From the IMG/VR virus record IMGVR_UViG_3300045988_099736, positions 1 through 15,861 of that record: a stretch of DNA of 15,861 nt, one strand, 5' to 3'. The position numbers and the translations under genes were made by a program. Below are positions 1-15,861 of this stretch, in pieces; within the stretch, counting starts at the first letter, position 1; each line of letters begins with the position of its first letter. The DNA comes from a virus. Under the pieces are notes generated by a model. The model did no database searches, had not been told where the DNA came from, and was given only the letters and a program-made list of their open reading frames with translations.

Positions 1-152
1 GTCGACATAAAATAAAACGATATTTAGAACATTCCCCCATTCAGTTTGCACGGTTGACTAAAAAGAGTGAACACGAATAAAAATATTTTAAAAATACGCT
101 TGACATTTCTATGCGTGTGTGCTATTATATAATTACAGAAAGGAAAAGGAGG
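1..152. repeat. Left inverted terminal repeat (ITR-L)
   Basis: The reverse complement of 15710-15861 equals 1-152 base for base (checked by eye). Similarity continues at 16/19 positions to 171, covering the ATG and first codons. Confidence 0.97.
100..128 (+). promoter_or_regulatory. Sigma-A type promoter inside ITR-L, firing inward
   Basis: TTGACA (100-105), a 17-nt spacer, then TATTAT (123-128) preceded by TGc (extended -10). GGAGG at 148-152 and ATG at 161 follow. Confidence 0.8.
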
Positions 153-160
153 ACAAGAAA

Positions 161-478
161 ATGACTAAAAAGTACAGAGTGAACGAGAGCGAATATTTTA
201 ATTTGTATTCTATGTATGACCGTTTAAAGTGCATTGAGATTGATATGAGAGAGGACACAGAACACTCATACATAGAAAAGCAATGGGATGAAATAGAAGC
301 TCGAATAAGTGAGGTTGAAGAACTTATGGAAAAAGCCTATTGCGTAGGTGCTTTAGTAGACTGGGTGACATTAAAGAGAATTAGAGAGATTAAAGCGGAA
401 CGGCAGCTTATTAGATATAACAATTGTATGCAGCAGGGGGCAACAGAGAAAGAAGCGGCAATGGCATTTTTATTGTAA
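161..478 (+). CDS. Hypothetical early protein (105 aa)
   Basis: ATG at 161 lies 8 nt after GGAGG (148-152). The ORF-track start at 119 is a GTG inside the promoter and was rejected. No recognisable domain. Confidence 0.75.
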   Translation: MTKKYRVNESEYFNLYSMYDRLKCIEIDMREDTEHSYIEKQWDEIEARISEVEELMEKAYCVGALVDWVTLKRIREIKAERQLIRYNNCMQQGATEKEAAMAFLL

Positions 479-495
479 AAGGAGGGAAAGAAAAA

Positions 496-744
496 ATGTC
501 CGAAAGTATAGCACAGCGTATTGAACAGGAACAGATTATTGACGCGAAATATGAGCAGCTGGCAGCTGAATATGCCAGAATCTGCGGTACAATGAAATAT
601 ATGTTAGTGATAAAACAGCTTGATTCTGAGATGTATAAAAGCAATAAAGTTCATATTGATAATGAGCTTGAAAGATTAGATATAGAAAGTGAAAGAATAT
701 TAACTGAACTTGAAAACCTAGTAAATGAAAAAGAACCCGTTTAG
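496..744 (+). CDS. Hypothetical early protein (82 aa, predicted helical/coiled-coil)
   Basis: ATG at 496 is preceded by AAGGAGGG (478-485). The sequence is charged with a heptad-like pattern. The stop codon TAG (742-744) lies in the loop of the terminator hairpin. Confidence 0.7.
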   Translation: MSESIAQRIEQEQIIDAKYEQLAAEYARICGTMKYMLVIKQLDSEMYKSNKVHIDNELERLDIESERILTELENLVNEKEPV

Positions 745-756
745 AACGGGTTCTTT
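730..756. terminator. Bidirectional intrinsic terminator between convergent units
   Basis: AAAGAACCCGTT (730-741) pairs with AACGGGTTCTTT (745-756) to give a 12-bp stem. T-rich tracts follow on both strands. It sits between the + gene ending at 744 and the - gene ending at 768. Confidence 0.85.
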
Positions 757-767
757 AATTTTATACC

Positions 768-1538
768 TTACTCTTTCCTCAGCATCCCTTTCGCAAGCAG
801 CACCACCAATTCCGTATTCTGCTCTGCCGTCCCGGTATACTCTGTAATCCCATTCGCCCTTGCAATTTCTTTCCGGTGCGCAAAACTGCTATCAATTCCG
901 ACCGTGTTTAACGCAGCTACCAGATTAATACCCGGATAGAATTTTTCCGATTTTATCTTTTTTGACATGTCAAATTTTTTACCTCCGATTTTACCGCTGT
1001 TAGTATACTGCCACAACGTAGCATTTTTACTATACTCGTCCTCTTTTGTAGTATATCTTGCATACCACAAAGGAAAATCTTTTAGTTTGCCGTGTAGCAA
1101 GTGGTTTATTAGATAATCCCGGTTAGCATAGTACCCACATTTATACCCGTAAAAGTTCATCGTCTGACAGAAGTTTGCAATCAATGTACTTCTGGAAATG
1201 CGCGTCAATGTGTTCGTATCATATCTGGATAGCTTTTCTTCTGTATCATATTCAAAGTCACACCAAACCCCCAGATTTATTTTATCTTTGTACGGTCTGA
1301 TTGTCTGTTCAAACTTGATGCAATTCGCAGCGATTGTCCTGCCGGAATGAATATACACAAACCAGTAAAACCCGAGATCAAGACTGCGCTTTATGACTTC
1401 ATTCGCAAAATATTTCATCCGTTCATCTTCTGTCACACCACTTCCCGCGCGAACAATAACACCAGTAATACCCGACTTGACAACAGCGTCCCAGTCTATC
1501 GGATAATTCCATTTTGACACGTCTATGATTTTACTCAT
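768..1538 (-). CDS. Endolysin: GH25 muramidase plus a C-terminal ~55-aa putative wall-binding module
   Basis: The N-terminus IDVSKWNYPIDWDAV, the motif WCDFEYD, and LWYARY / LWQYTNSGKIGGKKFD are typical of Glyco_hydro_25 (Cpl-1-type) lysozymes. The C-terminal stretch GIDSSFAHRKEIARANGITEYTGTAEQN resembles a module I recall on Firmicutes wall hydrolases (unverified). It is the last gene of the lysis cassette. Confidence 0.9.
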   Translation of the reverse strand: MSKIIDVSKWNYPIDWDAVVKSGITGVIVRAGSGVTEDERMKYFANEVIKRSLDLGFYWFVYIHSGRTIAANCIKFEQTIRPYKDKINLGVWCDFEYDTEEKLSRYDTNTLTRISRSTLIANFCQTMNFYGYKCGYYANRDYLINHLLHGKLKDFPLWYARYTTKEDEYSKNATLWQYTNSGKIGGKKFDMSKKIKSEKFYPGINLVAALNTVGIDSSFAHRKEIARANGITEYTGTAEQNTELVVLLAKGMLRKE

Positions 1539-1746
1539 GCTCTGATCTCCTTTCTAGTTCTTTTACCCTGTTCGTAATATCGTTGACTTTTGTTTCAATT
1601 ACGATCAGTCTGTCATCCATGCCTGAATGCCTGTCCATTCGTTTCTCTAAAGCATCTAAACGATATTTTATTAACGAATTATTCATAATTGCGACAAGCA
1701 ACGCAGATGCCAAACTACAACTAGCCGTTATAATAGACTCAATCAT
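1531..1746 (-). CDS. Small membrane protein (71 aa), BhlA/UviB-like architecture (possible second holin or holin accessory)
   Basis: An N-terminal hydrophobic helix (IITASCSLASALLVAIM) is followed by a charged coiled-coil tail. The gene lies between the holin and the endolysin and overlaps the endolysin start by 8 nt. The call rests on architecture only, with no sequence match verified. Confidence 0.55.
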   Translation of the reverse strand: MIESIITASCSLASALLVAIMNNSLIKYRLDALEKRMDRHSGMDDRLIVIETKVNDITNRVKELERRSEHE

Positions 1747-1748
1747 GG

Positions 1749-2009
1749 TTAGTCCTCTTTTGTAAGCTGTTTTGGAATCTGATTGATACCAACTGCGGAC
1801 AACCCACTGGCAATGGAAATTGCAACAGCATCCAGCACGTTAGTAGCTCCAATATCAATTCCGGTCACAATCGCAACAACTCCGCAAACGCAGCCAATTA
1901 AAACAGACAAAACAGGCAGCCAGTTGTCTTTTACAAGCTGTGTACGTTTGGCAACCTCTACCAAACCGTAACAAATAACTGTGATAGATAAATAGGGAAT
2001 AACTGTCAT
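1749..2009 (-). CDS. Holin, Listeria phage A118 Hol118-like
   Basis: Three hydrophobic segments are present. VEVAKRTQLVKDNWLPVLSVLIGCVCGVV resembles Hol118 [29 protein letters not shown] (from memory). The C-terminus is charged. An ATGA start/stop overlap links it to the upstream gene. Confidence 0.85.
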   Translation of the reverse strand: MTVIPYLSITVICYGLVEVAKRTQLVKDNWLPVLSVLIGCVCGVVAIVTGIDIGATNVLDAVAISIASGLSAVGINQIPKQLTKED

Positions 2010-2788
2010 AATTTTGTACCTCCTTGTAATAATTTATACACGCTTTCTGATAATTTTATATACGTACTACCATTAACACGCAAGAAAACCCCGTCAAGCT
2101 GCTTTGGTGTTTTGTTAAAGAAAATTGAATTTATCAATCTGTCCCCGTTTGAAGGCAAAAACATGTCCTGCACTTTGAATAAATATCTCGGCGCTTCCGG
2201 TACGATCGGCGGGTCTGGGTCTGGTGGTTCTGGAGGGTCGGGTGGCGGGTCTGGTTTAGGGTCGATATCTTCCCCGTTATATAGTTTTTGCCAAAAATAC
2301 CATCCCATTTCTCCCCGGTTTGGCTGGTTTAGATTTTTAGGGCGCTCATAGTTCCGCAAAAACATGTCGGCTAACATTTTTATCATTGCTTCCACGCTTT
2401 CGCCCGTCTGCCATTGCGTAAACTCGTAAAAGCTGTAAGGATATTTCGAAGTCGCAGCCCATTGTTTTTTGTTTGCAACCTCCCACTTTATACGCTCTAA
2501 CTGTCCTGTCCCGCTGTCGTGTGGGTATCCGTTTGCATCCATCCAGCTAAAAAGCTTTGTTGCGGGTGTCCACTGTACAAGCCCAAAACCTAAGTCGGTA
2601 TTCCCGGCATCTAGATTTTGCCATATTCCCGGGTTGACATGTGATTCCGCCCACATATTTCCCAACATTGCGCAGACTGCATAAGATGTCCATCTGCCTT
2701 GTACGGTGCTGCCCGCAAGGTAGTCGTAAACCTCGCGGGCATTTTCCAACGCTTCGGCAAGCGTTATCCACCTGTTGCCACTTATCAT
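2006..2788 (-). CDS. Tail-associated peptidoglycan hydrolase (phage tail lysozyme type) with Pro/Asp-rich linker and small C-terminal domain
   Basis: MLGNMWAESHVNPGIWQ...GFGLVQWT matches the signature I associate with the Phage_lysozyme2 family. The linker is DPKPDPPPDPPEPPDPDPPIVPEAP (nt 2189-2263). Its position after the fibre genes is analogous to phi29 gp13. Confidence 0.75.
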   Translation of the reverse strand: MISGNRWITLAEALENAREVYDYLAGSTVQGRWTSYAVCAMLGNMWAESHVNPGIWQNLDAGNTDLGFGLVQWTPATKLFSWMDANGYPHDSGTGQLERIKWEVANKKQWAATSKYPYSFYEFTQWQTGESVEAMIKMLADMFLRNYERPKNLNQPNRGEMGWYFWQKLYNGEDIDPKPDPPPDPPEPPDPDPPIVPEAPRYLFKVQDMFLPSNGDRLINSIFFNKTPKQLDGVFLRVNGSTYIKLSESVYKLLQGGTKL

Positions 2789-3540
2789 GCGTTTATACGA
2801 TAAGTAAGAGCCACCTCAGCCGTACTCCATCCCTCACTAGTATTAGGACGACCAATACCAATACGCTCACCTTTGAAGTCACTCTCCGTATAAGTTACTG
2901 GCACAGAACCCTGTTGAATTGTAGCGCTACTTGTTAAACCTTGCACATTGACAGTTCCGAAAACGTTTGACACAACCATTTTTATCAAAGTCATGTTATC
3001 AAGATTTTTATAAAAAAATGTGGCTGTTCCGGTGTTTGGTCTAGATGCTCCGACCGCTATAACTTTAAACACAACCTCCGTAGATGGTTTTGGCGCACTT
3101 TCCAGTGCCGTCACCCTACGATCAAGCTCTGCGATCGTCGTTTTGTTCCCATCCGCTGTCTGCTTTGCTTTTGTCGCGTTCGCACTAGCCGCATTCGCAG
3201 CGTTTACAACATCGGTTGCCGCCGTCTGTGCGGCGGCTGCTTTCTGCTCTGCTCTGTTCGCAGCTTCCTGTGCTGCTGTCACGTCTCCGGTCATGCCGTC
3301 CGCGGTTTCTTTCAGCTGCGCCACCTGTTTTTTGACATCCTCGTGAACGGCTTTCAGATCTGCCTGAGCGCTCTTTACAGTTTCCACATCATTAACTGCT
3401 TCCTCAGCTGTCTGACTAGCAGTAAATAAAGCACCGTCAATTATCTCCATGTCGTTGTTATAGTCTCCCAGAAAGGTTGGCTTGTCTGTCCCGATAAACT
3501 GGGATAATTTAAAATTGGCTGTTTTGTTTGTGCTACTCAT
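2785..3540 (-). CDS. Fibre protein (251 aa): N-terminal anchor motif, Ala-rich coiled coil, C-terminal beta-rich domain
   Basis: GGAGGT lies 7 nt before the ATG. The N-terminus NFKLSQFIGTDKPTFLGDYNNDMEIIDGAL is a motif common in Firmicutes phage fibre proteins. A long A/E/Q-rich helical region is followed by ~100 aa rich in T/V/G. Confidence 0.65.
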   Translation of the reverse strand: MSSTNKTANFKLSQFIGTDKPTFLGDYNNDMEIIDGALFTASQTAEEAVNDVETVKSAQADLKAVHEDVKKQVAQLKETADGMTGDVTAAQEAANRAEQKAAAAQTAATDVVNAANAASANATKAKQTADGNKTTIAELDRRVTALESAPKPSTEVVFKVIAVGASRPNTGTATFFYKNLDNMTLIKMVVSNVFGTVNVQGLTSSATIQQGSVPVTYTESDFKGERIGIGRPNTSEGWSTAEVALTYRINA

Positions 3541-3554
3541 TTTTTTACCTCCTT

Positions 3555-4001
3555 TTATGCAGTCTCTAAAGCTGCAATCCTTTCCTGTAAATTTGTGATC
3601 TTTCCAGCGTTCGCGCTGTTTGCATCGTTCGCAATTTCAACAGCTTCTTCAGCTGCGGTCACCATGCTTTGGGAATTGACGATGTTCTCAACTGCTTCCG
3701 CAGCTTTTTCTTCTGCACCGCTGGCAACCTGTGTTAAAACATTCAGTGCGGGCATCACAGCTAGCAATTTACCCTGCGATAATGTAATTGTGTTTTTTAA
3801 TGTTTCATTTTCTTCGGTCATGTTTGTGATCTCTGTCTGGACTGTTTTCATTTCGTTTTTTACGCCGGATGTTTTACCTTTCAGCGATTGTAAGGCTGCA
3901 TCAATCTTTTTGTTGTTTTCGTTCCAATCCCCCATGAGGTCAACAGCATCTTTTTTTTGATACATTCCGAAATTAAAAAACCTTGTGTGACGTGTAAACA
4001 T
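3555..4001 (-). CDS. Short fibre-like coiled-coil protein (148 aa), paralog of the 251-aa fibre lacking the C-terminal domain
   Basis: It shares the N-terminal motif (NFGMYQKKDAVDLMGDWNENNKKIDAAL) and the C-terminal coiled-coil ending (LQERIAALETA versus LDRRVTALESA). The ATG directly abuts the upstream stop (TAAATG). AAAGGGGG lies upstream. Confidence 0.65.
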   Translation of the reverse strand: MFTRHTRFFNFGMYQKKDAVDLMGDWNENNKKIDAALQSLKGKTSGVKNEMKTVQTEITNMTEENETLKNTITLSQGKLLAVMPALNVLTQVASGAEEKAAEAVENIVNSQSMVTAAEEAVEIANDANSANAGKITNLQERIAALETA

Positions 4002-5336
4002 TTATTGCACCCCCTTTTTAACTGGTAACTCCTTTAGTAAAGCGTTTTCGCAACATAAAACCCCTCTAATTGATGCAAAAGCAAAATTATCAAGAGAGGA
4101 TGTCTCTCCGGGTGCGGCTAAACCGTAAACATTAAAACGGAACTGAATAACTGTTGGCAATCCGTCTTTATATTTATTTTCCGCTTGATAATAATAAATA
4201 CCATTGCCGCTGTTTGTCTCTATGCACAGCCACGCGTGCCACTCATTATCATTAGTGATTTCTACGTTGAAGCCAACTACTGCCGTCCACGTATATGGGT
4301 ATGTTTCAGTTGTTGGCTTTTCTGGTGGTGTTATACTCGTTACGCATTTTTTAATAAACCCGTGTGCACTTCTTCCAATTGTCCGCACTCCAAGTCCATT
4401 ACCAACGTTATAGGTATCATAATAAGTCGCGTTTTCGGTATCCCACCACAACGCATCCTTATTTTTTGCTTTGATTGCCTGACAAGTTTCTGCCATAACA
4501 GTGTCAAATTCCTGCGCGGTAAGGTGCAATTCTGCGTCCACCTGCATAACTTCGTCAAGTGCTCTGGCATGGGAAATCAGATCTCCACTTCCGGGACTGT
4601 TAACGCTTGCATCAAAAACGCCGTACATTTTGCAATAACTTTCCGCATCGAACGCACCCGCGCGGATATACAACGCTTTAAAATCTTCACAGTCCTTGTC
4701 AAAAGCCGGAAACCACGCATCGAACTGTCCACAAGTGATAGCGCACACTCTCAGAACATCGTATACATTATTTACAGTGTTTCCCACTCTGTCCCGGTAT
4801 CCGGTTGTCGGGTCAAAAATACGAAAACCATCTTCGTTTACTTCGTCAATCTCAAGACGCAGCTTTTCCAGCTGCTCTTCAACCCACTCTTTCAAACGTT
4901 CAACCGCAAAGTCTGTGTACTGCTCCAGATATGCTTTTGTCTCGTCAATCTTGCCGTTCAGCTGCGCAACGTCTTTTTCATGTGTAAGTTTGATACTGTC
5001 AGCATACGCCCGCAATTCTGAGATCAAAGTTTCAAGCCGCTTAACGTCTTTTGTATGCTCTGCCCAGTAGTATGCGTCCTGAGTGTCAATGTAGACGCGC
5101 AAGTCTGCCACAGTCTTATCAAGAGTTTTCAAAAGCTCTGCTTTTAATTCCGCCACTTTTGTGTCTGTATAATTTTGATAATTTGTCTCTAAGTCAGTAA
5201 GAAATTGAATAATCTGATTGATATTGTATGCAATCTTCTGCATCATTTCCAACTGACTAATAGACGCATCCCATTCAGATGGCAGTGATAAATAGGCGTT
5301 ATTAAAACATAGCTTTTCCGGTAACTTTTTATCCAC
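4002..5336 (-). CDS. Tail fibre / appendage (receptor-binding) protein, 444 aa
   Basis: The only start in frame near an RBS is a GTG, with GGAGG (5347-5351) 10 nt upstream. The N-terminal half is a long coiled coil and the C-terminal half is beta-rich (YYYQAENKY, WTAVVGFNVE). Its position after the collar genes is analogous to phi29 gp12. Confidence 0.6.
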   Translation of the reverse strand: MDKKLPEKLCFNNAYLSLPSEWDASISQLEMMQKIAYNINQIIQFLTDLETNYQNYTDTKVAELKAELLKTLDKTVADLRVYIDTQDAYYWAEHTKDVKRLETLISELRAYADSIKLTHEKDVAQLNGKIDETKAYLEQYTDFAVERLKEWVEEQLEKLRLEIDEVNEDGFRIFDPTTGYRDRVGNTVNNVYDVLRVCAITCGQFDAWFPAFDKDCEDFKALYIRAGAFDAESYCKMYGVFDASVNSPGSGDLISHARALDEVMQVDAELHLTAQEFDTVMAETCQAIKAKNKDALWWDTENATYYDTYNVGNGLGVRTIGRSAHGFIKKCVTSITPPEKPTTETYPYTWTAVVGFNVEITNDNEWHAWLCIETNSGNGIYYYQAENKYKDGLPTVIQFRFNVYGLAAPGETSSLDNFAFASIRGVLCCENALLKELPVKKGVQ

Positions 5337-10309: not shown

Positions 10310-10433
10310 TTTTTCCCTTTCTCCCGTGTGCGGTTTATAAGTAAGGGAAAACACGCGCATAATCCGATGCGCCACACAGACAAGCCGAATTCACACGGGG
10401 ATTTCCTGCCTATGCTGTAAGTTCTCCCTCTAT
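10310..10433 (-). promoter_or_regulatory. Structured ~125-nt leader or candidate small RNA upstream of the late genes
   Basis: Non-coding. It contains a GCGCAT-N6-ATGCGC hairpin (10355-10372) followed by GUGUUUU. A UUUUCCCUU tract (10343-10351) is complementary both to the SD region (10311-19) and, over its 10345-10352 part (GUUUUCCC, one G.U), to a 5' GGGAGAAC (10421-28). There is also an 8-bp long-range pairing between 10323-30 and 10392-99. Confidence 0.5.
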
Positions 10434-10439
10434 GGTTTT

Positions 10440-10468
10440 ATTATAGCTTCCTTTTGTACCGATGTCAA
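10440..10468 (-). promoter_or_regulatory. Perfect consensus sigma-A promoter for the structural (late) operon
   Basis: On the minus strand: TTGACA (10468-10463), 17 nt, then TATAAT (10445-10440). The ATPase TGA stop is embedded in the -35 hexamer. Confidence 0.8.
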
Positions 10469-11514
10469 CCCCTAATTCCTAAAAAATCCATGCCTATATT
10501 TTTACATTCCTGCGATTCAAACCGGAAATTCCCGGCATTAAATTGCTTTCTACACATCGACACTTGCGCGGATATTGCGCCTGTTAGACAAGTGTTTTCG
10601 TCATGATCTTTTGTGGATATGGCAAAAAGTCTGTGAAAATTTCTGTCTGCTTTTAACGATATATAATATCTTCCATTTTGTAGCATCCACAACCCATAAA
10701 AAAGACCATTGTGTTTTATTGTCATTAAATACCTTGCCCCGGCAAGATTCTGTTTTGCAATAAATTGCACATTGTCCAACAAAAAGATATTGTCAATACT
10801 ATAGTTAAAATAAGAAGCATCGGAGAAAGCACGATAAAATCCGTTTTGTTGTTTTTCCTCTGCTACGTATTTATTTCTATAAACTTCCATCACCCAACCA
10901 TGCCCGCGCATAAAATGAATACCGGATTGCCAGCGCTTATGAATCCCTAAAGCGACAAAATACGGATTCAATAACGAAACCATGTTGCTAACTAAAAAAT
11001 AAGTAAGTTTCCGTGTTAATTGTTCAAAACCTCTTCCAACTGCGTCATTGATTGCAAAAAACTTCGTGATCTCGTCCGCGCAATAGTCCCCGGTTTCGCT
11101 TTGGAACTCGTCAAGAAAAATATTATCTGCATCGTTAAAAAATGTAGATATTCGTTTCACTTTATCGACCATACTCAGTGCAATTACATATCCGCAAGAT
11201 ATTTCAAAATCTTCGGTCTTTATAAAAACTTCTGCGAATTTACCAGAACCGCTGGATACTGAATATAAATCGGTATTAGGAAATTTGTTTTTCACATCCG
11301 CCCAAAATGCAGGAATATAACTGTTTAATTCATCTTTTTTGCGAACTAGACAGATAAACTTTTTACTTTTATGCAAAAATTCATTGATTAAATATTCTTT
11401 CACGGCAAAAGATTTTCCGCCGCCTTTCGAGCCTGTTATAATAAAAATGTCGGGTGTATTGCCGTCTAAGTCTTTTGTTTTTAAAATACTGTCTAACCTG
11501 TAATGTTTTTCCAT
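10465..11514 (-). CDS. DNA packaging ATPase (phi29 gp16 type), 349 aa
   Basis: Walker A is IITGSKGGGKSF and Walker B is NIFLDEFQ. The size is about that of gp16. ATG at 11514 follows AAAGGGG. The ORF-track TTG start at 11529 was rejected. Confidence 0.88.
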   Translation of the reverse strand: MEKHYRLDSILKTKDLDGNTPDIFIITGSKGGGKSFAVKEYLINEFLHKSKKFICLVRKKDELNSYIPAFWADVKNKFPNTDLYSVSSGSGKFAEVFIKTEDFEISCGYVIALSMVDKVKRISTFFNDADNIFLDEFQSETGDYCADEITKFFAINDAVGRGFEQLTRKLTYFLVSNMVSLLNPYFVALGIHKRWQSGIHFMRGHGWVMEVYRNKYVAEEKQQNGFYRAFSDASYFNYSIDNIFLLDNVQFIAKQNLAGARYLMTIKHNGLFYGLWMLQNGRYYISLKADRNFHRLFAISTKDHDENTCLTGAISAQVSMCRKQFNAGNFRFESQECKNIGMDFLGIRG

Positions 11515-11531: not shown

Positions 11532-11559
11532 AAAAAGAGGAACAATTGTTCCTCTTTTT
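11532..11559. terminator. Perfect 28-bp palindrome; terminator-like hairpin or operator upstream of the ATPase gene
   Basis: AAAAAGAGGAACAA/TTGTTCCTCTTTTT is fully self-complementary. It lies between the stop at 11571 and the ATPase RBS, and A/U tracts flank the GC core. Confidence 0.6.
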
Positions 11560-11570: not shown

Positions 11571-11906
11571 TTAAACAAGAACAACTGTCAAAAACTCATT
11601 CTTATTGTTTGACTTTCTATATTCCGCCCTTAATGTAAGGGGATTATCTGCTGCCGGCGCTCCGACAAACTGATCAAGGGTCTGAATACAATCTGCAACT
11701 GTTGGTGAGAGGGTTGTAATGCAGCGTCCGTCTTGAAGTACGAACCCGGTGCATACGCAAGCGTCTCCGGTGGCTTTTCTAGTAGTTTCCCACTGTGCAA
11801 TCCCAACTACCACCATATCTTCACCTACGTGATCGGTTAAGCCCTCGCTATTCTGCGAAAGGCTATACAGCTGTTTTTTGTCGGTTACTGTGTTGATTAA
11901 ACTCAT
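11571..11906 (-). CDS. Hypothetical protein (111 aa), possible replication accessory (SSB/DBP position)
   Basis: AAGGAGAG lies 8 nt before the ATG. No motif was recognised. Only position suggests a function, by analogy with phi29 genes 5 and 6. Confidence 0.7.
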   Translation of the reverse strand: MSLINTVTDKKQLYSLSQNSEGLTDHVGEDMVVVGIAQWETTRKATGDACVCTGFVLQDGRCITTLSPTVADCIQTLDQFVGAPAADNPLTLRAEYRKSNNKNEFLTVVLV

Positions 11907-11920
11907 AATGATCTCTCCTT

Positions 11921-12220
11921 TTATTCTGCTTTTTCTGCTTCGTCAACTGTTACGACTTCGGAATACTTCAGAAAATCTTCAACGCTTAAACGTCTCAGCT
12001 CTTCTCTGTATTCAGTATTCACACAGAAAAGTCCTTTTTCATCGGGATATGCTTTGTTGATTTCCCGCGTAATTGCCATATTAGAGGCTACTCTAACAGG
12101 TACAACAACATCAGGAAGTGCAACTACCTGTCCATCTGCAAACTGTGACACCTTAATAACGGTAGTTGTCACAGTTCTTGTGAAAAACCGTGTCCTTGCG
12201 TCTCCGTCTCCTTTTCTCAT
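11921..12220 (-). CDS. Hypothetical protein (99 aa)
   Basis: It is the first gene after the internal promoter. AAAGGAG lies ~10 nt before the ATG. No motif was recognised. Confidence 0.7.
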   Translation of the reverse strand: MRKGDGDARTRFFTRTVTTTVIKVSQFADGQVVALPDVVVPVRVASNMAITREINKAYPDEKGLFCVNTEYREELRRLSVEDFLKYSEVVTVDEAEKAE

Positions 12221-12267
12221 TTTTGTACTGCTCCTTTCTTTTTTGTTGTGTTTTTTATTACATTATT

Positions 12268-12296
12268 ATAATAGCACAAACCTTTTAAAGTGTCAA
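12268..12296 (-). promoter_or_regulatory. Internal sigma-A promoter sharing the ITR promoter module
   Basis: On the minus strand: TTGACA (12296-12291), 17 nt, then TGcTATTAT (-10 at 12273-12268). The string TGTGCTATTATA is identical to the ITR promoters. The polymerase TGA stop is embedded in the -35. Confidence 0.75.
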
Positions 12297-14143
12297 CATC
12301 TTTTTGCGCGTAAAGTATAAAAATCTTCTACTAACACCATTCCGCCACTAATATATTTTGGTTTTAATTTTCCGCCCACTTTCAAGCCGATTTTAAAGTC
12401 CGTTATTGGGTGACTTGCTAAAAATAACTTTTTTGATTTTTCCGGCATCCCTGCACACTTGATCTCCCAGTGTCCTGTCACTTTTTTACCGTCCTCTTTT
12501 TGCACAAACTCTGCATATGTCTTTTGTCTTATAAATATAGCACTGCTCCAATTGCTTTCCCGTTTCCAGTGCAATAGCTCTGTAGCGTGTTCTTTTATCA
12601 TTTTCACTGGTTTTCCATCGTCCAGCATATGTATAGAGTCCGTGTCACTGTATACAAAGTTTTCATAATTAGCTTGTGCATGCGTTATGGTAAAATATCG
12701 GGCGTATGCTGTCACGGCTGCTCCCGCTGCGATATATAGCGTGTCTTTTTCATGCTCCGGGTGCAATTCAAAGCCTATGGAATCTGTTTCAGGGTCGATG
12801 TACGGCTCACGGTAAGAACTATTATCGTTAATGGCAAGCCGTCCGTATAAATTATTCAAAAACAATTTTGCTTCTGTGCGCTCTCCCTTGTCTTTTGTAG
12901 TCATTTTTATTTTCATATAGTGATTGATATAAGTATCAAAAAGACCTATTGCGCCATGAAAATAACAACCGTCTAAAATCTCTAAGTCATACACTTCATA
13001 ATGCTCCAATAAAAGAAAATAGTCTGTCATAAAAAGCGTTAATTCCGGTTTTGCTTCCTCTTTTTGTCCCTCTTTATTTGTAAAATATCTATAATATTTT
13101 CCGCGATAATAAATATCAGATGTTTCCAACCATTGCGTAGAGTTATACCGATAGTCTCCTTTAATCTGCACAGTCGGCAAAAAACCGCCTTTTATCTTAA
13201 ACCGACAGCGCAATCTAACATAAAACGGATAGACGCGCGTTTCTAAGCATTTATAGGGGATTTCTTTTTCGAAAAAAATTGGCTTGCCTGTTGGATAATA
13301 GTTCCCGCTTTTACTGTGCATAACACTGGGATAAAGAGAATTAACATCAAACGTCATGCCGCTCTGCGTGATATGTTTTCTTTGCTTGTATTTGTAATAG
13401 CAATAACCTCCTTTGTAAGCTTTACGAATATATTCATCAACATTATCACTTCCACGCTCATATTTTATTAGCACTATATCTTTTAAGTTCGGAAAAGCTG
13501 CGTTAAAATCCATAGCGTCAAATTTGTTTTTAAACTCGTCCATACAGCACGAACCAATTGTCAATTTATCATGCCCGCTTTTTATCATAACTTCCAGCGC
13601 TTCCTTCAATACATAGATATCGTTAATAATATAAGCATATTCTTCCGGTGTTATTTCACAGTTTGCGTGACGCATTCCTACATATTTCATTTCTAACTTC
13701 CTATGCTGCGTATTAAATGCAGAACCTATTTGAGCTAATGTCATGGGCATCAGTTTAACGCTGTCCCTAAACTCGATCACTGTGTCAAATTTTGGTTTAA
13801 CTGTAACGGTATACCATTTATTTGTATCCGAAATTAGGGTTTTAAACTCTTTTGCGTTCATGTCTTTATTGCGGGCATTATTCCATGTATAGCCGTTCTT
13901 TAACAGCCAATACACAATAAAAGCGCCATCAAAACGCAGATTATGAAAATAACAGAGAACGTTTTTATTCAAATTAAAAATATCGTTCAAAAAATCTTCT
14001 ATGTTACCCCGCAAGTGCGGTTGCTCTGTAAATAATTCTATCCATGCAGCGCTCCAAACTTCTGTTGATGTCTGACCGGGATACACTGTTGTTTCAAAGT
14101 CTGCCGCTATTATAACGGGTTTTTTCGCTGATTTTTTTGGCAT
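12293..14143 (-). CDS. Protein-primed family B DNA polymerase (phi29 gp2 type), 616 aa
   Basis: Motifs found: ExoI AADFETT, ExoII FHNLRFDGAFIV, ExoIII PEEYAYIINDIYVLKEAL, motif A GMTFDVNSLYPS, motif B KLFLNNLYGRLA, pre-C AVTAYARYFTI, motif C VYSDTDSIHM, KxY RQKTYAEF, and KCAGM. All are collinear with phi29 DNAP. Insertions occupy the TPR1 and TPR2 positions. Confidence 0.97.
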   Translation of the reverse strand: MPKKSAKKPVIIAADFETTVYPGQTSTEVWSAAWIELFTEQPHLRGNIEDFLNDIFNLNKNVLCYFHNLRFDGAFIVYWLLKNGYTWNNARNKDMNAKEFKTLISDTNKWYTVTVKPKFDTVIEFRDSVKLMPMTLAQIGSAFNTQHRKLEMKYVGMRHANCEITPEEYAYIINDIYVLKEALEVMIKSGHDKLTIGSCCMDEFKNKFDAMDFNAAFPNLKDIVLIKYERGSDNVDEYIRKAYKGGYCYYKYKQRKHITQSGMTFDVNSLYPSVMHSKSGNYYPTGKPIFFEKEIPYKCLETRVYPFYVRLRCRFKIKGGFLPTVQIKGDYRYNSTQWLETSDIYYRGKYYRYFTNKEGQKEEAKPELTLFMTDYFLLLEHYEVYDLEILDGCYFHGAIGLFDTYINHYMKIKMTTKDKGERTEAKLFLNNLYGRLAINDNSSYREPYIDPETDSIGFELHPEHEKDTLYIAAGAAVTAYARYFTITHAQANYENFVYSDTDSIHMLDDGKPVKMIKEHATELLHWKRESNWSSAIFIRQKTYAEFVQKEDGKKVTGHWEIKCAGMPEKSKKLFLASHPITDFKIGLKVGGKLKPKYISGGMVLVEDFYTLRAKRC

Positions 14144-14144
14144 T

Positions 14145-14178: not shown

Positions 14179-14805
14179 TTAATATTCGCCCCAACCGTTT
14201 TCATAGTCGAATGAATCTAAAAATTCTTTTTGCCGATCTCGTGATAAACCTAAGTTATCTGACAATTCCGATAAAAATTCAGGGACAATTGATTGCCCGC
14301 CATTTTTTTCTGCGTCATAGCTTTCATGGATAGTTAGCCAGGGTACAGCCTCTAATGCTTCCGCTGTTGCTATTTTCCCGTTCTTATTTAAGCTATTTTC
14401 TAGCCATTGTCTGCACATGCGCTCAGCTACCGGAAAATATGTGTATGTCGTATTTATAAAATTCTCTATAATAATATCCGCACTAGAGGGATAATCTACT
14501 ACACGCCCTCTTTTCTTTTTTGCTTTTCGTCTTTTTGACTTGTATTCTCCCCGACCTATTTTCTTTTTTGCTTTTCGCCTTTTTGACTTGTAACCGCTGT
14601 CTGTTATTAAAGATTCCGCTGTTTTTTGTATGGCATCCGGTGTTATTTTTTTCAGCCGCTGCACATCTGCTTTTGTAGGCTGCTTCTTTGCTTTTGGAAT
14701 GCCAATAGATATTGCATAGCCCTGCGCAAGCAATTTATTTACTTGCTTTTCAATTCTTTTAAGTTCTTGCGCGTATACTTTCGCGTACCTGTTTTTTCTT
14801 GCCAT
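14179..14805 (-). CDS. Candidate terminal (priming) protein, 208 aa
   Basis: It lies directly upstream of the protein-primed polymerase, as phi29 gene 3 does. The N-terminus is basic and helical and begins MARKNR (phi29 TP begins MARSPR, from memory). It has an internal Lys/Arg-rich repeat and an acidic C-terminal third. AAGGAGG lies 9 nt before the ATG. Confidence 0.6.
   Translation of the reverse strand: MARKNRYAKVYAQELKRIEKQVNKLLAQGYAISIGIPKAKKQPTKADVQRLKKITPDAIQKTAESLITDSGYKSKRRKAKKKIGRGEYKSKRRKAKKKRGRVVDYPSSADIIIENFINTTYTYFPVAERMCRQWLENSLNKNGKIATAEALEAVPWLTIHESYDAEKNGGQSIVPEFLSELSDNLGLSRDRQKEFLDSFDYENGWGEY
14511..14592. repeat. Tandem direct repeat inside the terminal-protein candidate (two 34-nt copies, 48-nt period, 33/34 identical)
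   Basis: TTTTCTTTTTTGCTTTTCG(T/C)CTTTTTGACTTGTA occurs at 14511-14544 and 14559-14592. It encodes YKSKRRKAKKKIGRGE and YKSKRRKAKKKRGRVV (aa 72-103). Confidence 0.95.
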
Positions 14806-14836
14806 ATAACAAAACCTCCTTTTATAGTATGATTAT

Positions 14837-14865
14837 ATTGTATCATATTTTCATAAAAAATACAA
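14837..14865 (-). promoter_or_regulatory. Probable promoter for the terminal protein-polymerase unit
   Basis: On the minus strand: TTGTAT (14865-14860), 17 nt, then TGaTACAAT (-10 at 14842-14837). A TATAAT overlaps at 14837-14832. It lies just downstream of a terminator hairpin. Confidence 0.55.
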
Positions 14866-14868
14866 TAA

Positions 14869-14893
14869 GAAAAGCCGCTTTGCACGGCTTTTC
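14869..14893 (-). terminator. Intrinsic terminator after the right-end early genes
   Basis: On the minus strand, GAAAAGCCG-UGCAAAG-CGGCUUUUC is followed by UUAUUGUAUUUUUU. It starts 3 nt after the stop at 14896. Confidence 0.7.
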
Positions 14894-14895
14894 CT

Positions 14896-15264
14896 TTATT
14901 TGTAAATCATATAAAACACAGCCAACATGTTGTTTGCTTTTGCATATTCAAGCTGTGTCTTTTTTGCTTCCTCCGGTGTTTTACCGTTTCGCAGTTCTGC
15001 GTAGAACAATTCTACCAATATTGTCACCTTGTCATACAACTGTCTTGAACGTTCCCATTCTTTAAAGTTCCATAACGTTACTGTTTTTGTATAACTGTCT
15101 ATGTCAATCTTGACACCTCTCTTGAATAATTCGGTTATGTTGGTAAGTTCATAACCAGTTCTGTAAGGGATGCGAACTGTGTCACAGCCCGACTGCATCG
15201 GAATTATTTCATAGTTTGTTATTGAGTTTTTATGCAGTTTCTTTATTATGTTTTTTATTTCCAT
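14896..15264 (-). CDS. Hypothetical early protein (122 aa)
   Basis: GGGAGG lies 7 nt before the ATG. No motif was recognised. Confidence 0.75.
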   Translation of the reverse strand: MEIKNIIKKLHKNSITNYEIIPMQSGCDTVRIPYRTGYELTNITELFKRGVKIDIDSYTKTVTLWNFKEWERSRQLYDKVTILVELFYAELRNGKTPEEAKKTQLEYAKANNMLAVFYMIYK

Positions 15265-15319
15265 TTTTTATCCTCCCATGATAAGCACTACTATTTCTTC
15301 CATTTCTTTAGTTGCCCCT

Positions 15320-15520
15320 TTAAATTTTCTCGTTAATTACCGTCCCAATTGCGTTTAATATGTCATTAGCTTCCTTTTTAAGTTCATCAAGTCTATTGTC
15401 TATTATAATTTTATTAAATCTATATGTTTTATTTTCAAAATCTTTTAACTGTTTATAATATGTTATCTTAGCAGTTACCATTGCATATCTTTCTGTCAAT
15501 GAATCATAATTTCTTTCCAT
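15320..15520 (-). CDS. Hypothetical early protein (66 aa, helical)
   Basis: ATG at 15520 (MERNYDSL) lies 8 nt after GGAGG (15529-33). The ORF-track start at 15574 would overlap the upstream gene and lacks an RBS. Confidence 0.7.
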   Translation of the reverse strand: MERNYDSLTERYAMVTAKITYYKQLKDFENKTYRFNKIIIDNRLDELKKEANDILNAIGTVINEKI

Positions 15521-15533
15521 TTTGTTGTCCTCC

Positions 15534-15701
15534 TTAAAATTCACTGTCCAGAACATTCTGGAAATCCGGTGCAAGTTCTAAGTAACGATTTAAAAATTCT
15601 TCATTGGTGCACGGCGCTAATTCGAACGCAACCAATTCGCGGATATCATCGTCCATCATGTTCACGATTGCTTCCCAATACTTGTCTAAATTTTTAGTCA
15701 T
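15534..15701 (-). CDS. Hypothetical early protein (55 aa, strongly acidic)
   Basis: ATG at 15701 is the mirror of ATG 161 and shares its ITR-borne RBS. It has 13 Asp/Glu against 4 Lys/Arg. The ORF-track start at 15743 lies inside the promoter. Confidence 0.75.
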   Translation of the reverse strand: MTKNLDKYWEAIVNMMDDDIRELVAFELAPCTNEEFLNRYLELAPDFQNVLDSEF

Positions 15702-15709
15702 TTCATTGA

Positions 15710-15861
15710 CCTCCTTTTCCTTTCTGTAATTATATAATAGCACACACGCATAGAAATGTCAAGCGTATTTTTAAAATATTTTTATTCGTGTTCACTCTTT
15801 TTAGTCAACCGTGCAAACTGAATGGGGGAATGTTCTAAATATCGTTTTATTTTATGTCGAC
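15710..15861. repeat. Right inverted terminal repeat (ITR-R)
   Basis: It is the exact reverse complement of 1-152. Confidence 0.97.
15734..15762 (-). promoter_or_regulatory. Sigma-A type promoter inside ITR-R, firing inward
   Basis: It is the mirror image of 100-128: TTGACA (15762-15757), 17 nt, then TGcTATTAT (-10 at 15739-15734). Confidence 0.8.

What the first reader, a model, noticed from the sequence alone, without database searches (positions are those of the whole stretch)
1..15861. The window is a whole, very small protein-primed podovirus genome
Both ends are the same 152-bp sequence in inverted orientation. Between them lies a full virion, replication and lysis gene set with a phi29-type DNA polymerase. 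The polymerase motifs are close to phi29 (PEEYAYIxNDI, GMxFDVNSLYP, YxDTDSIH, KCAGM). Most other proteins are recognisable only by short motifs or by synteny, and 7 of the 21 genes have no recognisable function. At 15.9 kb it is smaller than the Bacillus phi29 group (about 19-21 kb, from memory). This suggests a divergent lineage, but I cannot test novelty here.
Basis: partly seen in the sequence, partly recalled or inferred. Interest (0 to 1): 0.65.

Follow-up and report, generated by a model that had tools for sequence, protein, structure and literature searches.

The report
Small gut phi29-like phage genome
The window is a nearly complete (about 5 bases short at each end) linear genome of a small phi29-type phage that is common in human gut metagenomes; the phage type is ordinary, but beside its packaging-motor gene lies a small structured RNA that looks like the packaging RNA so far known only from Bacillus phages.

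Summary
Window 1-152 is the exact reverse complement of 15710-15861, and between the repeats lies a full phi29-type gene set: a protein-primed family B polymerase, gp16 ATPase, capsid, connector, collar, tail knob, tail lysozyme, holin and endolysin.

Independent assemblies of relatives end at the same place. Two carry sequencing adapter directly on 5'-CCCAC + the window's first base, so these are real DNA ends and the window lacks about 5 nt per end.

The novelty claim is weak.
- No GenBank phage matches at nucleotide level.
- IMG/VR holds relatives at 80-85% intergenomic similarity, which is the same genus but a different species.
- The polymerase's 90% cluster has 431 public members.
- Cultured gut phages of 14.2-16.5 kb already exist, so 15.9 kb is not unusually small.

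The terminal protein is assigned by position only. No homology to phi29 TP was detectable.

New points:
- The first right-end gene is an AcrIC5-family anti-CRISPR.
- The ITRs carry the early promoters.
- The 155-nt gap after the ATPase gene encodes a ~100-nt RNA with the topology of phi29 pRNA, including covarying complementary loops.
- The same design follows the ATPase gene in four to five other clostridial phage clades.
- Rfam's pRNA model does not detect any of these RNAs.

The parts
1..152 (+). Left inverted terminal repeat (exact part; similarity runs to 171). It holds an extended -10 sigma-70-type promoter at 100-128 and the RBS of the first left gene. About 5 nt (CCCAC) are probably missing before base 1.
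15710..15861 (-). Right inverted terminal repeat, with the same promoter (15762-15734) driving the rightmost genes leftwards.
161..478 (+). Left-end early gene, 105 aa, no family match. It shares promoter, RBS and first codons (MTK) with the right-end gene.
496..744 (+). Second left-end gene, 82 aa, function unknown.
730..756 (.). Bidirectional intrinsic terminator between the converging left-end genes and the long leftward operon.
768..1538 (-). Endolysin: GH25 muramidase with a C-terminal DUF3597-like wall-binding region.
1531..1746 (-). 71-aa protein in the lysis cassette (phrog_1863, function unknown). The N terminus is hydrophobic and the rest heptad-rich in the translation; no topology or coiled-coil predictor was run.
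1749..2009 (-). Holin (phrog_1129 and phrog_1299).
2006..2788 (-). Tail-associated peptidoglycan hydrolase (Phage_lysozyme2), in the position of phi29 gp13.
2785..3540 (-). 251-aa fibre or appendage-like protein (weak tail-fibre PHROG hits). Its C-terminal half is replaced in relatives, as expected of a receptor-binding part.
3555..4001 (-). 148-aa protein in the appendage block with weak coiled-coil-family hits; function inferred from position only.
4002..5336 (-). 444-aa protein in the position of phi29 gp12 (appendage). No family match. Its C-terminal ~100 aa diverge between relatives.
5352..6041 (-). Lower collar / adaptor (phrog_3225, 2.8e-55).
6038..7012 (-). Upper collar / connector (portal), Pfam Phage_connector.
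7030..8700 (-). Tail knob protein (phi29 gp9 type).
8755..10041 (-). Major capsid protein (Phi29_MCP) with a ~90-aa C-terminal extension.
10055..10309 (-). 84-aa acidic protein directly before the capsid gene. It is called a scaffolding protein from position only.
10335..10433 (-). Candidate packaging-RNA-like structured RNA. It has an outer helix, a three-way junction, a helix with a 5'-side bulge (AAAUCC) capped by a short hairpin, and a second hairpin whose loop (CGGAUU) is complementary to the bulge.
10440..10468 (-). Perfect TTGACA-17-TATAAT promoter, invariant in relatives. Its -35 box overlaps the ATPase stop codon, and the predicted start (~10433) is the first base of the RNA's outer helix.
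10465..11514 (-). DNA packaging ATPase (phi29 gp16 type), 349 aa from the ATG at 11514.
11532..11559 (.). Palindromic terminator hairpin between the SSB-like gene and the ATPase gene.
11571..11906 (-). Single-stranded DNA-binding protein (Phi29_Phage_SSB, 5.9e-6, above the Pfam cut-off).
11921..12220 (-). 99-aa dsDNA-binding protein family (phrog_6370, 2.3e-8), the counterpart of phi29 p6.
12268..12296 (-). Promoter that is a near copy of the ITR promoter (30-nt similarity). It overlaps the polymerase stop codon.
12293..14143 (-). Protein-primed family B DNA polymerase, 616 aa, 34% identical to phi29 polymerase, with the TPR1 and TPR2 regions.
14179..14805 (-). Putative terminal protein, 208 aa, directly upstream of the polymerase gene. 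It contains a tandem 16-aa basic repeat (YKSKRRKAKKKxGR) in a low-confidence linker; relatives carry 1, 2 or 3 copies.
14834..14895 (-). Terminator of the right early operon (14895-14867), followed by a TTGTAT-17-TGaTACAAT promoter for the terminal protein-polymerase operon.
14896..15264 (-). 122-aa early protein, function unknown.
15320..15520 (-). 66-aa early protein, function unknown.
15534..15701 (-). 55-aa AcrIC5-family protein (a candidate type I-C anti-CRISPR). It is the first gene behind the right ITR promoter.

Best explanation
The window is the linear double-stranded DNA genome, complete except for about 5 terminal bases per end, of an uncultured phi29-type short-tailed phage from the human gut. 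Its host is most likely a clostridial Firmicute.

Shown:
- ITRs of 152 bp, and physical ends that are reproduced in independent assemblies.
- A phi29-type polymerase with the protein-priming subdomains.
- A full phi29-type virion, packaging and lysis gene set.

Inferred replication: the 208-aa protein encoded upstream of the polymerase serves as the primer. Replication would start at the 3'-GGG ends with terminal protein-dCMP and sliding back, then proceed by strand displacement helped by the SSB-like and p6-like proteins.

Inferred expression:
- Identical strong promoters inside both ITRs fire first. On the right they express an AcrIC5-type anti-CRISPR and two small proteins; on the left, two small proteins.
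- Separate promoters then drive the terminal protein-polymerase operon and the DNA-binding genes.
- A consensus promoter drives the late operon, from scaffold through to endolysin.

Inferred packaging: unit-length DNA is packaged by the gp16-type ATPase on the connector. The ~100-nt RNA encoded between the ATPase gene and the late operon probably bridges the two as an oligomeric ring, as pRNA does in phi29.
For: ITR.

Real ends:
- Two IMG/VR relatives begin and end exactly with CCCACGTCGACAT.
- Two others carry the Illumina adapter tail (...GCTCTTCCGATCT) directly before CCCAC.
- An ENA assembly holding the identical sequence equals window 153-15709, as expected when an assembler breaks at a repeat.

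Gene set. Polymerase aligned to the phi29 structure through TPR1 and TPR2.

The terminal-protein-like family is conserved in the same position in the cultured Clostridium phage CS229P2 (hhalign probability 100%). It has about 128 representative homologues of 190-250 aa.

Transcription signals.

Anti-CRISPR: Pfam AcrIC5 at 40.6 bits against a cut-off of 27. The same family sits at the same place in a relative.

Host and habitat:
- AAGGAGG ribosome-binding sites and TTGACA/TATAAT promoters throughout.
- The nearest cultured relatives infect Clostridium symbiosum.
- Every labelled contig that carries the RNA motif is from a human gut metagenome.

RNA:
- z-score -3.55.
- 97.5% of cells paired, and 6 pairs with compensatory changes across 19 distinct sequences.
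- Same topology as the authentic phi29 and GA-1 pRNAs folded with the same tool.
- The same design follows the ATPase gene in other clades.
Against: - No similarity of the putative terminal protein to phi29 or GA-1 TP by sequence, profile or fold. A review reports that such similarity is not detectable outside close relatives (PMC11476376).
- The window itself does not contain the CCCAC ends; they are inferred from relatives that are 80-85% similar.
- The host was not determined. The only genome-collection hit is a 3.9-kb contig in a rabbit Ruminiclostridium MAG, and one homologue is labelled Bacteroides in NCBI.
- Rfam's pRNA model finds nothing in the window.
- The RNA in this clade has no strong terminator of its own, so it could be only the leader of the late mRNA.
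Confidence: 0.88

Rival explanations
1. The structured RNA at 10335-10433 is not a packaging RNA. It would be a 5' leader, attenuator or stabiliser of the late operon that happens to form a three-way junction.
For: - In the window clade and its sister clade the RNA lies directly between a promoter and the RBS of the scaffold gene. No strong terminator intervenes, only a weak hairpin plus U-rich tract.
- Rfam RF00044 does not match it.
- A model built from this clade alone finds no other clade.
- My loose descriptor search gives dozens of hits per genome.
- Covariation inside the clade rests on few haplotypes.
Against: - Where the ATPase gene is inverted relative to the late operon (CS229P2, L034, MT835814), the RNA stays downstream of the ATPase gene and ends in a strong terminator. 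There it cannot be a late-operon leader.
- In Clostridium phage HM2 it is a separate unit with its own promoter and terminator.
- The bulge and hairpin loop are complementary in each clade with different sequences: AAUCC/GGAUU, AUCCC/GGGAU, GGGA/UCCC, GACA/UGUC, GUAGU/ACUAC. The joint chance is about 5e-8 with random loops and about 1e-6 with shuffled loops.
- The order of elements is the same as in authentic phi29 and GA-1 pRNA.
Confidence: 0.27
2. The inverted repeats are an assembly artefact, or the contig is a fragment or a permuted circle rather than a unit-length linear genome.
For: - One ENA assembly of the identical sequence lacks both repeats.
- The window starts 5 nt inside the ends seen in relatives.
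Against: - At least eight independently assembled relatives carry the same ITR at both ends, starting within 0-24 nt of the window's end.
- Two contigs stop exactly at CCCAC at both ends, and two have adapter joined there.
- The gene set is complete, and nothing is cut by the ends.
Confidence: 0.03
3. The host is a Bacteroides, as suggested by the NCBI label 'Bacteroides sp. CAG:1076' on a 93% identical homologue of the terminal-protein-like protein.
For:: CCY92840.1 carries that organism name.
Against: - The label comes from a co-abundance gene group, not an isolate. This rests on my own knowledge of the CAG naming.
- The genome uses strong AAGGAGG ribosome-binding sites and TTGACA/TATAAT promoters. 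From general knowledge, these are typical of Firmicutes and not of Bacteroidota.
- All cultured phages whose polymerase or ATPase matched in these searches infect Gram-positive hosts. The nearest infect Clostridium symbiosum.
Confidence: 0.03

Closest known systems
Uncultivated viral genomes IMGVR_UViG_3300045988_085158, _088596 and _115612, with more than 10 others, and NCBI 'MAG TPA Caudoviricetes sp.' (DAO48635.1 / DAO48651.1)
   Same: - Same gene order.
- Polymerase 95-97% identical.
- 80-85% intergenomic similarity.
- Same ITR sequence, same promoters, same RNA element.
   Different: - Below the 95% species line.
- Early genes differ.
- The C-terminal parts of the two fibre-like proteins differ.
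- The endolysin differs (91% identical at best, about 51% in most relatives).
- ITR length ranges from 152 bp here to about 320-340 bp.
Sister clade: MT835904.1 (human faeces, Mexico, 15.6 kb) and about 14 IMG/VR contigs
   Same: - Collinear genome.
- Polymerase 53% and capsid 56% identical.
- Promoter plus structured RNA between the ATPase and scaffold genes.
   Different: - 12.6% intergenomic similarity.
- ATPase only 35% identical.
- The RNA has a 17-bp outer helix and a GGGA/UCCC loop pair.
Clostridium phages CS229P1-3 (host Clostridium symbiosum, 16.2-16.5 kb), the nearest cultured relatives
   Same: - phi29-type gene set.
- Polymerase 45.6% identical.
- The same terminal-protein-like family upstream of the polymerase gene.
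   Different: - 3.2% intergenomic similarity.
- The ATPase gene is on the opposite strand.
- Many more small early genes.
- The RNA model is hand-made there and lies 5.4 kcal/mol above the MFE.
Bacillus phage phi29 (Salasmaviridae, 19.3 kb)
   Same: - Protein-primed polymerase with TPR1 and TPR2.
- gp16 ATPase, capsid, connector, collars, tail knob, tail lysozyme, SSB, p6-like protein, holin and endolysin.
- Terminal repeats with a 3-base homopolymer at the tip (AAA in phi29, CCC here).
   Different: - Polymerase 34% and ATPase 26% identical; 1.5% intergenomic similarity.
- ITR of 152 bp against 6 bp.
- Almost all genes lie on one strand, whereas phi29 has divergent early and late blocks.
- The ATPase gene lies before the capsid genes, not at the end of the late operon.
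- The RNA candidate lies next to the ATPase gene, whereas the phi29 pRNA gene is at the left genome end.
- No homologue of the late activator p4 was found.
- An anti-CRISPR gene is present.
phi29 pRNA (Rfam RF00044)
   Same: - Order of elements: outer helix formed by the 5' and 3' ends, a three-way junction, a helix with a bulge on the 5' side only, a capping hairpin stacked on it, then a second hairpin.
- The bulge is complementary to the second hairpin's loop (phi29 AACC/GGUU).
- Similar size class and similar folding z-score.
   Different: - No match to the Rfam model even at E up to 10, although the same search gives 145 bits on phi29 itself.
- The outer helix is only 10-14 bp in this clade.
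- The genomic position differs.
- Function is untested.

Membership tests
phi29-like protein-primed podoviruses (Salasmaviridae and relatives, former Picovirinae) | Family B DNA polymerase of the protein-primed type, with TPR1 and TPR2 insertions | tested here: met
   Pfam DNA_pol_B_2 at 1.6e-45. phrog_1907 over the full length. Aligned to phi29 polymerase 1XHX over residues 15-612, E 1.7e-87, through both insertions.
phi29-like protein-primed podoviruses (Salasmaviridae and relatives, former Picovirinae) | Inverted terminal repeats at defined genome ends | tested here: met
   152-bp exact ITR. The ends are reproduced in independent assemblies, some with adapter attached.
phi29-like protein-primed podoviruses (Salasmaviridae and relatives, former Picovirinae) | Terminal protein gene next to the polymerase gene | tested here: inconclusive
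   A conserved 208-aa gene sits directly upstream of the polymerase gene, as in phi29 and GA-1 and in CS229P2. No similarity to phi29 or GA-1 TP by Pfam, PHROGs, PDB sequence or profile search, Foldseek or hhalign.
phi29-like protein-primed podoviruses (Salasmaviridae and relatives, former Picovirinae) | Protein covalently bound to the 5' ends of virion DNA | not testable with these tools
   Needs virion DNA, for example protease-dependent mobility of the end fragments.
phi29-like protein-primed podoviruses (Salasmaviridae and relatives, former Picovirinae) | phi29-type virion module (capsid, connector, lower collar, tail knob) and gp16-type packaging ATPase | tested here: met
   Phi29_MCP 1e-80, Phage_connector 3e-39, phrog_3225 3e-55, phi29_gp9_C 6e-18, Podovirus_Gp16 2e-32.
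Salasmaviridae (ICTV family of phi29) | Placement inside the family by shared-gene or phylogenetic criteria | not tested
   Only pairwise figures were obtained: polymerase 34%, ATPase 26%, 1.5% intergenomic similarity to phi29. The nearest cultured relatives (CS229P) are unclassified Caudoviricetes. No tree or gene-sharing network was built.
Genus-level group of gut UViGs (IMG/VR 3300045988 set) | More than 70% intergenomic nucleotide similarity (genus) and at least 95% (species) | tested here: met
   The genus level is met: 85.2, 82.5 and 79.7% to three full-length contigs. The species level is not met with any contig compared. Most of the 431 members of the polymerase cluster were not compared.
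phi29 pRNA (Rfam RF00044) | Match to the family covariance model | tested here: not met
   No hit in the window at E up to 10, and none in HM2, L034 or CS229P2. In the same search phi29 scores 145 bits.
phi29 pRNA (Rfam RF00044) | Architecture: end-to-end outer helix, three-way junction, bulged helix plus capping hairpin, second hairpin, and complementary bulge and loop for ring formation | tested here: met
   The MFE fold of the window RNA, and of the sister-clade, L034 and HM2 RNAs, has this topology. So do phi29 and GA-1 pRNA folded in the same way. Loop complementarity is 4-5 bp in each, with a joint chance of about 5e-8. It covaries within the clade.
phi29 pRNA (Rfam RF00044) | Bound to proheads and required for DNA packaging | not testable with these tools
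   Needs experiments. CS229P1-3 and HM2 are cultured and could be used.
AcrIC5 anti-CRISPR family (Pfam PF22147) | Sequence match above the curated cut-off | tested here: met
   E 2.9e-10, 40.6 bits against a cut-off of 27, covering residues 8-42 of 55. A homologue sits at the same position in relative L041. The family is reported across Proteobacteria, Firmicutes and Actinobacteria (PMC7913775). Inhibition of a type I-C system was not tested.

The most novel reading that the evidence does not exclude
The ~100-nt RNA encoded just downstream of the packaging ATPase gene (window 10335-10433, minus strand) is a true packaging RNA. Its counterparts occur in at least four other clades of clostridial phi29-like phages, including the cultured phages HM2 and CS229P. 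If so, an RNA ring in the packaging motor would not be a peculiarity of Bacillus phages. It would be an old and widespread trait of phi29-like phages, too diverged for the Rfam model to detect and genetically linked to the ATPase gene.
Probability: 0.6. Interest if true: 0.65.

Novelty: new member of a known kind. Interest (0 to 1): 0.42.

Why it matters
As a genome it adds one more species to an abundant, uncultured human-gut genus of phi29-like phages, which is useful for catalogues but not surprising. Three things give it more value.

1. Exact physical ends. The adapter-tagged ends of relatives give the termini (5'-CCCAC...), which metagenomic assemblies seldom reveal. They suggest a terminal protein-dCMP start with sliding back.

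2. A compact early programme. The promoters lie inside the ITRs, and a type I-C anti-CRISPR gene comes first. This points to hosts with type I-C CRISPR systems.

3. The pRNA-like RNA next to the ATPase gene.
   - A 2024 review states that pRNA is unique to phi29 and related Bacillus phages (PMC11476376).
   - A candidate present in cultured Clostridium phages would make it directly testable whether the RNA component of this motor is ancestral.
   - It would also supply new natural self-assembling RNA rings for RNA nanotechnology.

Tried and rejected
- Megablast of the whole window against GenBank phages: no hit.
- tRNA scan: none.
- Rfam at E up to 10: only chance-level hits and no pRNA.
- Terminal protein homology: all negative. 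This covers Pfam, PHROGs, PDB by sequence and by a 55-sequence profile, an AlphaFold model (pLDDT 84.6) searched with Foldseek against PDB, and hhalign against phi29 plus GA-1 TP. BFVD gave only uncharacterised gut podovirus proteins.
- Host search:
  - A polymerase scan of 185,579 species genomes gave one 3.9-kb MAG contig.
  - Endolysin homologues are almost all on similar small phage contigs.
  - A CRISPR spacer search was not feasible with these tools.
- A covariance model built from the window clade alone did not find the RNAs of other clades.
- My own descriptor search for the pRNA-like topology was too permissive, with dozens of hits per genome, so I do not use it as evidence. The window candidate was nevertheless the top score on both strands.
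- For CS229P2 the pRNA-like fold is hand-made and 5.4 kcal/mol worse than the MFE. For MT835814 the loop complementarity is weak, 3 Watson-Crick pairs plus a G-U.
- A linear plasmid or a prophage was considered and rejected. The virion module is complete, there is no integrase, and the ends are defined.

Full report
**1. Observation**

The two ends of the window are inverted copies. Bases 1-152 equal the reverse complement of 15710-15861 without a mismatch, and similarity runs on to 171 nt with three mismatches.

The repeat is not inert. It holds a TTGACA-17-TATTAT promoter with a TG extension (100-128 on the plus strand, 15762-15734 on the minus strand). It also holds an AAGGAGG ribosome-binding site. 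The 171-nt extension includes the ATG and the first codons (MTK) of the first gene at each end.

All but two genes lie on the minus strand and are read from the right end leftwards. Two small genes at the left end are read rightwards. The two directions meet at a bidirectional terminator at 730-756.

**2. Gene content**

Profile searches confirm a full phi29-type set:

| Product | Window coordinates | Evidence |
|---|---|---|
| Family B polymerase | 12293-14143 | DNA_pol_B_2, 1.6e-45 |
| Packaging ATPase | 10465-11514 | Podovirus_Gp16, 2e-32 |
| Major capsid protein | 8755-10041 | Phi29_MCP, 1e-80 |
| Tail knob | 7030-8700 | phi29_gp9_C plus Caud_tail_N |
| Connector | 6038-7012 | Phage_connector, 3e-39 |
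| Lower collar | 5352-6041 | phrog_3225, 2.8e-55 |
| Tail lysozyme | 2006-2788 | Phage_lysozyme2 |
| Holin | 1749-2009 | phrog_1129, phrog_1299 |
| GH25 endolysin | 768-1538 | Glyco_hydro_25 |
| SSB | 11571-11906 | Phi29_Phage_SSB, above the cut-off |
| p6-like dsDNA-binding protein | 11921-12220 | phrog_6370 |

The polymerase aligns with the phi29 enzyme (PDB 1XHX) from residue 15 to 612, E 1.7e-87. The alignment runs through the TPR1 and TPR2 regions that are special to protein-primed polymerases.

I count 22 protein genes. Four have no clue at all (161-478, 496-744, 14896-15264, 15320-15520). The scaffold (10055-10309), the three fibre or appendage-like proteins (2785-5336) and the terminal protein are assigned from position only.

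**3. Are these real genome ends?**

Yes, with a small correction.

- IMG/VR holds at least 13 contigs whose polymerase is 95-97% identical. Eight of them carry the same ITR at both ends and start within 0-24 nt of the window's end.
- Contigs 085158 and 088596 begin and end exactly with CCCACGTCGACAT.
- Contig 115612 has 19 nt of Illumina adapter (...GTGCTCTTCCGATCT) directly joined to CCCAC at both ends. Contig 119472 keeps the last three adapter bases.
- Adapter joined to the same base in different samples means that this is where the DNA molecule ends.
- The window starts at GTCGAC, so it lacks CCCAC on each side. The full genome would be about 15,871 bp with a 157-bp exact ITR. This is inferred from relatives, not seen in the window.
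- An ENA assembly (ERZ28575032, scaffold_2994, 15,557 bp) is identical to window 153-15709. That is the window minus both repeats, which is the usual result when an assembler breaks at a repeat.

A CCC tip fits the homopolymer tips used for sliding back in protein-primed replication (AAA in phi29). The mechanism itself rests on established knowledge of phi29, and its application here is inference.

**4. Terminal protein**

The 208-aa gene at 14179-14805 lies 35 nt upstream of the polymerase gene. That is the position of gene 3 in phi29 and GA-1.

The family is large: 128 representatives at the 50% identity level, mostly 190-250 aa. A profile of it matches, with hhalign probability 100%, the gene upstream of the polymerase gene in the cultured Clostridium phage CS229P2.

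It shows no similarity to phi29 or GA-1 TP by any method I could run. A 2024 review reports the same limit for TPs in general (PMC11476376). For Clostridium perfringens podoviruses the TP was likewise assigned by position and then supported by a protease test (PMC3362512). So I call it a putative TP.

A 48-bp tandem duplication gives two copies of a basic 16-aa unit, YKSKRRKAKKKxGR. It sits in a low-confidence linker of the AlphaFold model. Relatives have one, two or three copies, giving proteins of 192, 208 and 224 aa.

**5. Expression plan (inferred from signals)**

- The right ITR promoter drives a 55-aa AcrIC5-family protein (40.6 bits against a cut-off of 27) and two small proteins. This unit ends at a terminator at 14895-14867.
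- A TTGTAT-17-TGaTACAAT promoter follows, for the terminal protein-polymerase operon.
- A near copy of the ITR promoter at 12296-12268 overlaps the polymerase stop codon. It drives the p6-like and SSB genes, which end at a hairpin at 11559-11532.
- The ATPase gene starts at the ATG at 11514.
- A perfect consensus promoter at 10468-10440 overlaps the ATPase stop codon and heads the late operon.

AcrIC5 homologues are reported in Firmicutes and Actinobacteria, and the Pseudomonas protein also blocks the Eggerthella lenta I-C system (PMC7913775). An anti-CRISPR as the first gene behind a terminal promoter makes sense for an immediate-early defence blocker. That is inference.

**6. Relatives and novelty**

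| Comparison | Result |
|---|---|
| GenBank phages, nucleotide | no hit |
| MT835904.1 (human faeces), polymerase | 52.9% |
| CS229P1-3 (host Clostridium symbiosum), polymerase | 45.6% |
| phi29 and B103, polymerase | 34% |
| Three full-length IMG/VR contigs, VIRIDIC-style similarity | 85.2, 82.5, 79.7% |
| MT835904.1, VIRIDIC-style similarity | 12.6% |
| CS229P2, VIRIDIC-style similarity | 3.2% |
| phi29, VIRIDIC-style similarity | 1.5% |

The window is therefore a separate species, by the 95% rule, inside an already sampled genus.

The lineage is common.
- The polymerase's 90% cluster has 431 members.
- NCBI already holds 'MAG TPA: DNA polymerase B [Caudoviricetes sp.]'.
- A 2013 entry for a terminal-protein-like homologue is labelled 'Bacteroides sp. 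CAG:1076'.
- All labelled metagenome contigs are from the human gut.

Size is not remarkable. Cultured phages of 14.2 kb (CI55P1), 14.6 kb (CI461P1), 15.9 kb (Hungatella CH17P1) and 16.0 kb (Eggerthella LE1-1) are in GenBank.

Differences from close relatives are concentrated in four places:
- the early genes;
- the C-terminal parts of the 444-aa and 251-aa fibre-like proteins;
- the endolysin;
- ITR length, 152 bp here against about 320-340 bp.

**7. Host**

The host was not determined.
- The strong AAGGAGG sites and sigma-70 promoters point to Firmicutes, most likely gut Clostridia, as do the clostridial hosts of the nearest cultured relatives and the GH25 endolysin.
- The endolysin's nearest cultured homologue appears to be in the Hungatella phage. 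That link rests only on a matching contig length of 15,915 nt.
- The Bacteroides label is probably a binning name.
- The one hit in species genomes is a short contig in a rabbit Ruminiclostridium MAG.

**8. A packaging-RNA-like RNA (found in passing)**

*The element in the window.* Between the ATPase stop codon (10465) and the scaffold start codon (10309) lie 155 non-coding bases. The consensus promoter would start transcription at about 10433. From that base the RNA folds as follows (trimmed RNA z = -3.55):
- a 10-bp outer helix;
- a three-way junction;
- an 11-bp helix with a bulge on its 5' side only (AAAUCC), capped by a short hairpin;
- a second hairpin with the loop CGGAUU.

The bulge and this loop can form five Watson-Crick pairs.

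*Covariation.* In 30 relatives (19 distinct sequences), 97.5% of cells pair. Four pairs of the long helix and two of the loop-loop pairs show changes on both sides: AAUCC/GGAUU in one set, AUCCC/GGGAU in the other. No shuffle out of 500 reaches the observed covariation score. The alignment was fitted to the model and the haplotypes are few, so this is supportive rather than proof.

*Comparison with authentic pRNA.* The authentic phi29 and GA-1 pRNAs, folded with the same tool, give the same order of elements, with AACC/GGUU in phi29. Their z-scores are -2.18 and -1.94.

*Other clades.*
- The sister clade has, at the same place, a promoter and a ~105-nt RNA with a 17-bp outer helix and a GGGA/UCCC loop pair (z = -4.53). 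This RNA is invariant in 15 contigs although the neighbouring gene varies.
- In three clades the ATPase gene is inverted relative to the late operon. There the RNA stays downstream of the ATPase gene and ends in a strong terminator.
  - L034: GACA/UGUC.
  - CS229P2: CUGUA/UACAG, from a hand-made model 5.4 kcal/mol above the MFE.
  - MT835814: weak loop pairing.
- I looked at Clostridium phage HM2 only after forming the model. It has a separate unit with its own promoter and terminator. Its MFE fold has exactly this topology, with a GUAGU/ACUAC pair.

*Chance estimate.* The chance of such loop complementarity in the four MFE-defined cases is about 5e-8 with random loops and about 1e-6 with shuffled loops.

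*Against.*
- Rfam RF00044 scores 145 bits on phi29 but finds none of these RNAs.
- A single-clade model does not cross clades.
- In the window clade the RNA could simply be the late-mRNA leader.

*Literature and probability.*
- A 2024 review calls pRNA unique to phi29 and related Bacillus phages (PMC11476376).
- An earlier paper notes that a Bacillus-based model could not reliably find the pRNA of Cp-1 (PMC6266182), so a pRNA had been proposed at least for that Streptococcus phage.
- I put the probability that this is a functional pRNA counterpart at about 0.6.

**9. Verdict**

As a genome it is a new member of a known kind. Most of the interest lies in the RNA, and to a lesser degree in the mapped termini and the anti-CRISPR at the terminus.

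Noticed in passing
window 10335-10468 (minus strand); also L001 5361-5468, L040 (HM2) ~6100-6200, L034 downstream of the ATPase gene, L002 (CS229P2) 5675-5790 minus strand: A ~100-nt RNA with the topology of phi29 pRNA and a complementary bulge and loop lies directly after the packaging ATPase gene. In the window it sits behind a perfect promoter. The same design occurs in four to five other clades, and Rfam's pRNA model does not detect any of them.
   Followed up: yes
window 15534-15701 (minus strand): The first gene behind the right ITR promoter matches Pfam AcrIC5 (a type I-C anti-CRISPR) above the curated cut-off. A homologue sits at the same place in relative L041.
   Followed up: partly
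L012 1-24; L046 1-19; L047 last 19 nt; L008 1-3: IMG/VR contigs of relatives keep Illumina adapter sequence (...GTGCTCTTCCGATCT) directly joined to the phage terminus CCCAC. This is a contaminant in the public records, and it marks the true DNA ends.
   Followed up: yes
window 14499-14592 (minus-strand gene 14179-14805): A 48-bp tandem duplication encodes a basic 16-aa unit (YKSKRRKAKKKxGR) in the putative terminal protein. Relatives carry 1, 2 or 3 copies, giving proteins of 192, 208 and 224 aa.
   Followed up: partly
window 100-129, 15733-15762 and 12267-12296: The ITR promoter has a third, near-identical copy (30 nt, 77%) that overlaps the polymerase stop codon. One promoter type therefore heads three transcription units.
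   Followed up: partly
window 2788-3101 and 4090-4350: Alignments with relatives that are 85-89% identical elsewhere break exactly at the C-terminal parts of the 251-aa and 444-aa fibre-like proteins. This suggests swapped receptor-binding domains. The endolysin is also exchanged (about 51% identity in most genus members).
   Followed up: partly
NCBI CCY92840.1 (protein P0024): A 93% identical homologue of the terminal-protein-like protein is deposited as 'Bacteroides sp. CAG:1076' on a 15.8-kb contig. It is most likely this phage genus filed under a bacterial name.
   Followed up: partly
L035 (ENA ERZ28575032 scaffold_2994): A public assembly holding the identical sequence is exactly the window without its two 152-bp repeats. 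This shows how ITRs get lost in metagenome assemblies.
   Followed up: yes
UViG_088596 and UViG_115612 (L051+L048, L046+L047): ITRs in the same genus reach about 320-340 bp, against 152 bp here. In those genomes the repeat probably takes in the whole first gene.
   Followed up: no
L001 and L016-L029, ~60 nt downstream of the RNA's outer helix: In the sister clade a GGGAUU motif just after the RNA is a perfect 6-nt complement of the second hairpin's loop (AAUCCC). It could offer an alternative pairing. I have no explanation for it.
   Followed up: no
window 14179-14805 N terminus versus L037 2886-3686: The putative terminal protein and phi29 TP both begin MARxxR, followed by a basic helical stretch with a Tyr and then ...IP. 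hhalign gives this no weight (probability 1%).
   Followed up: partly
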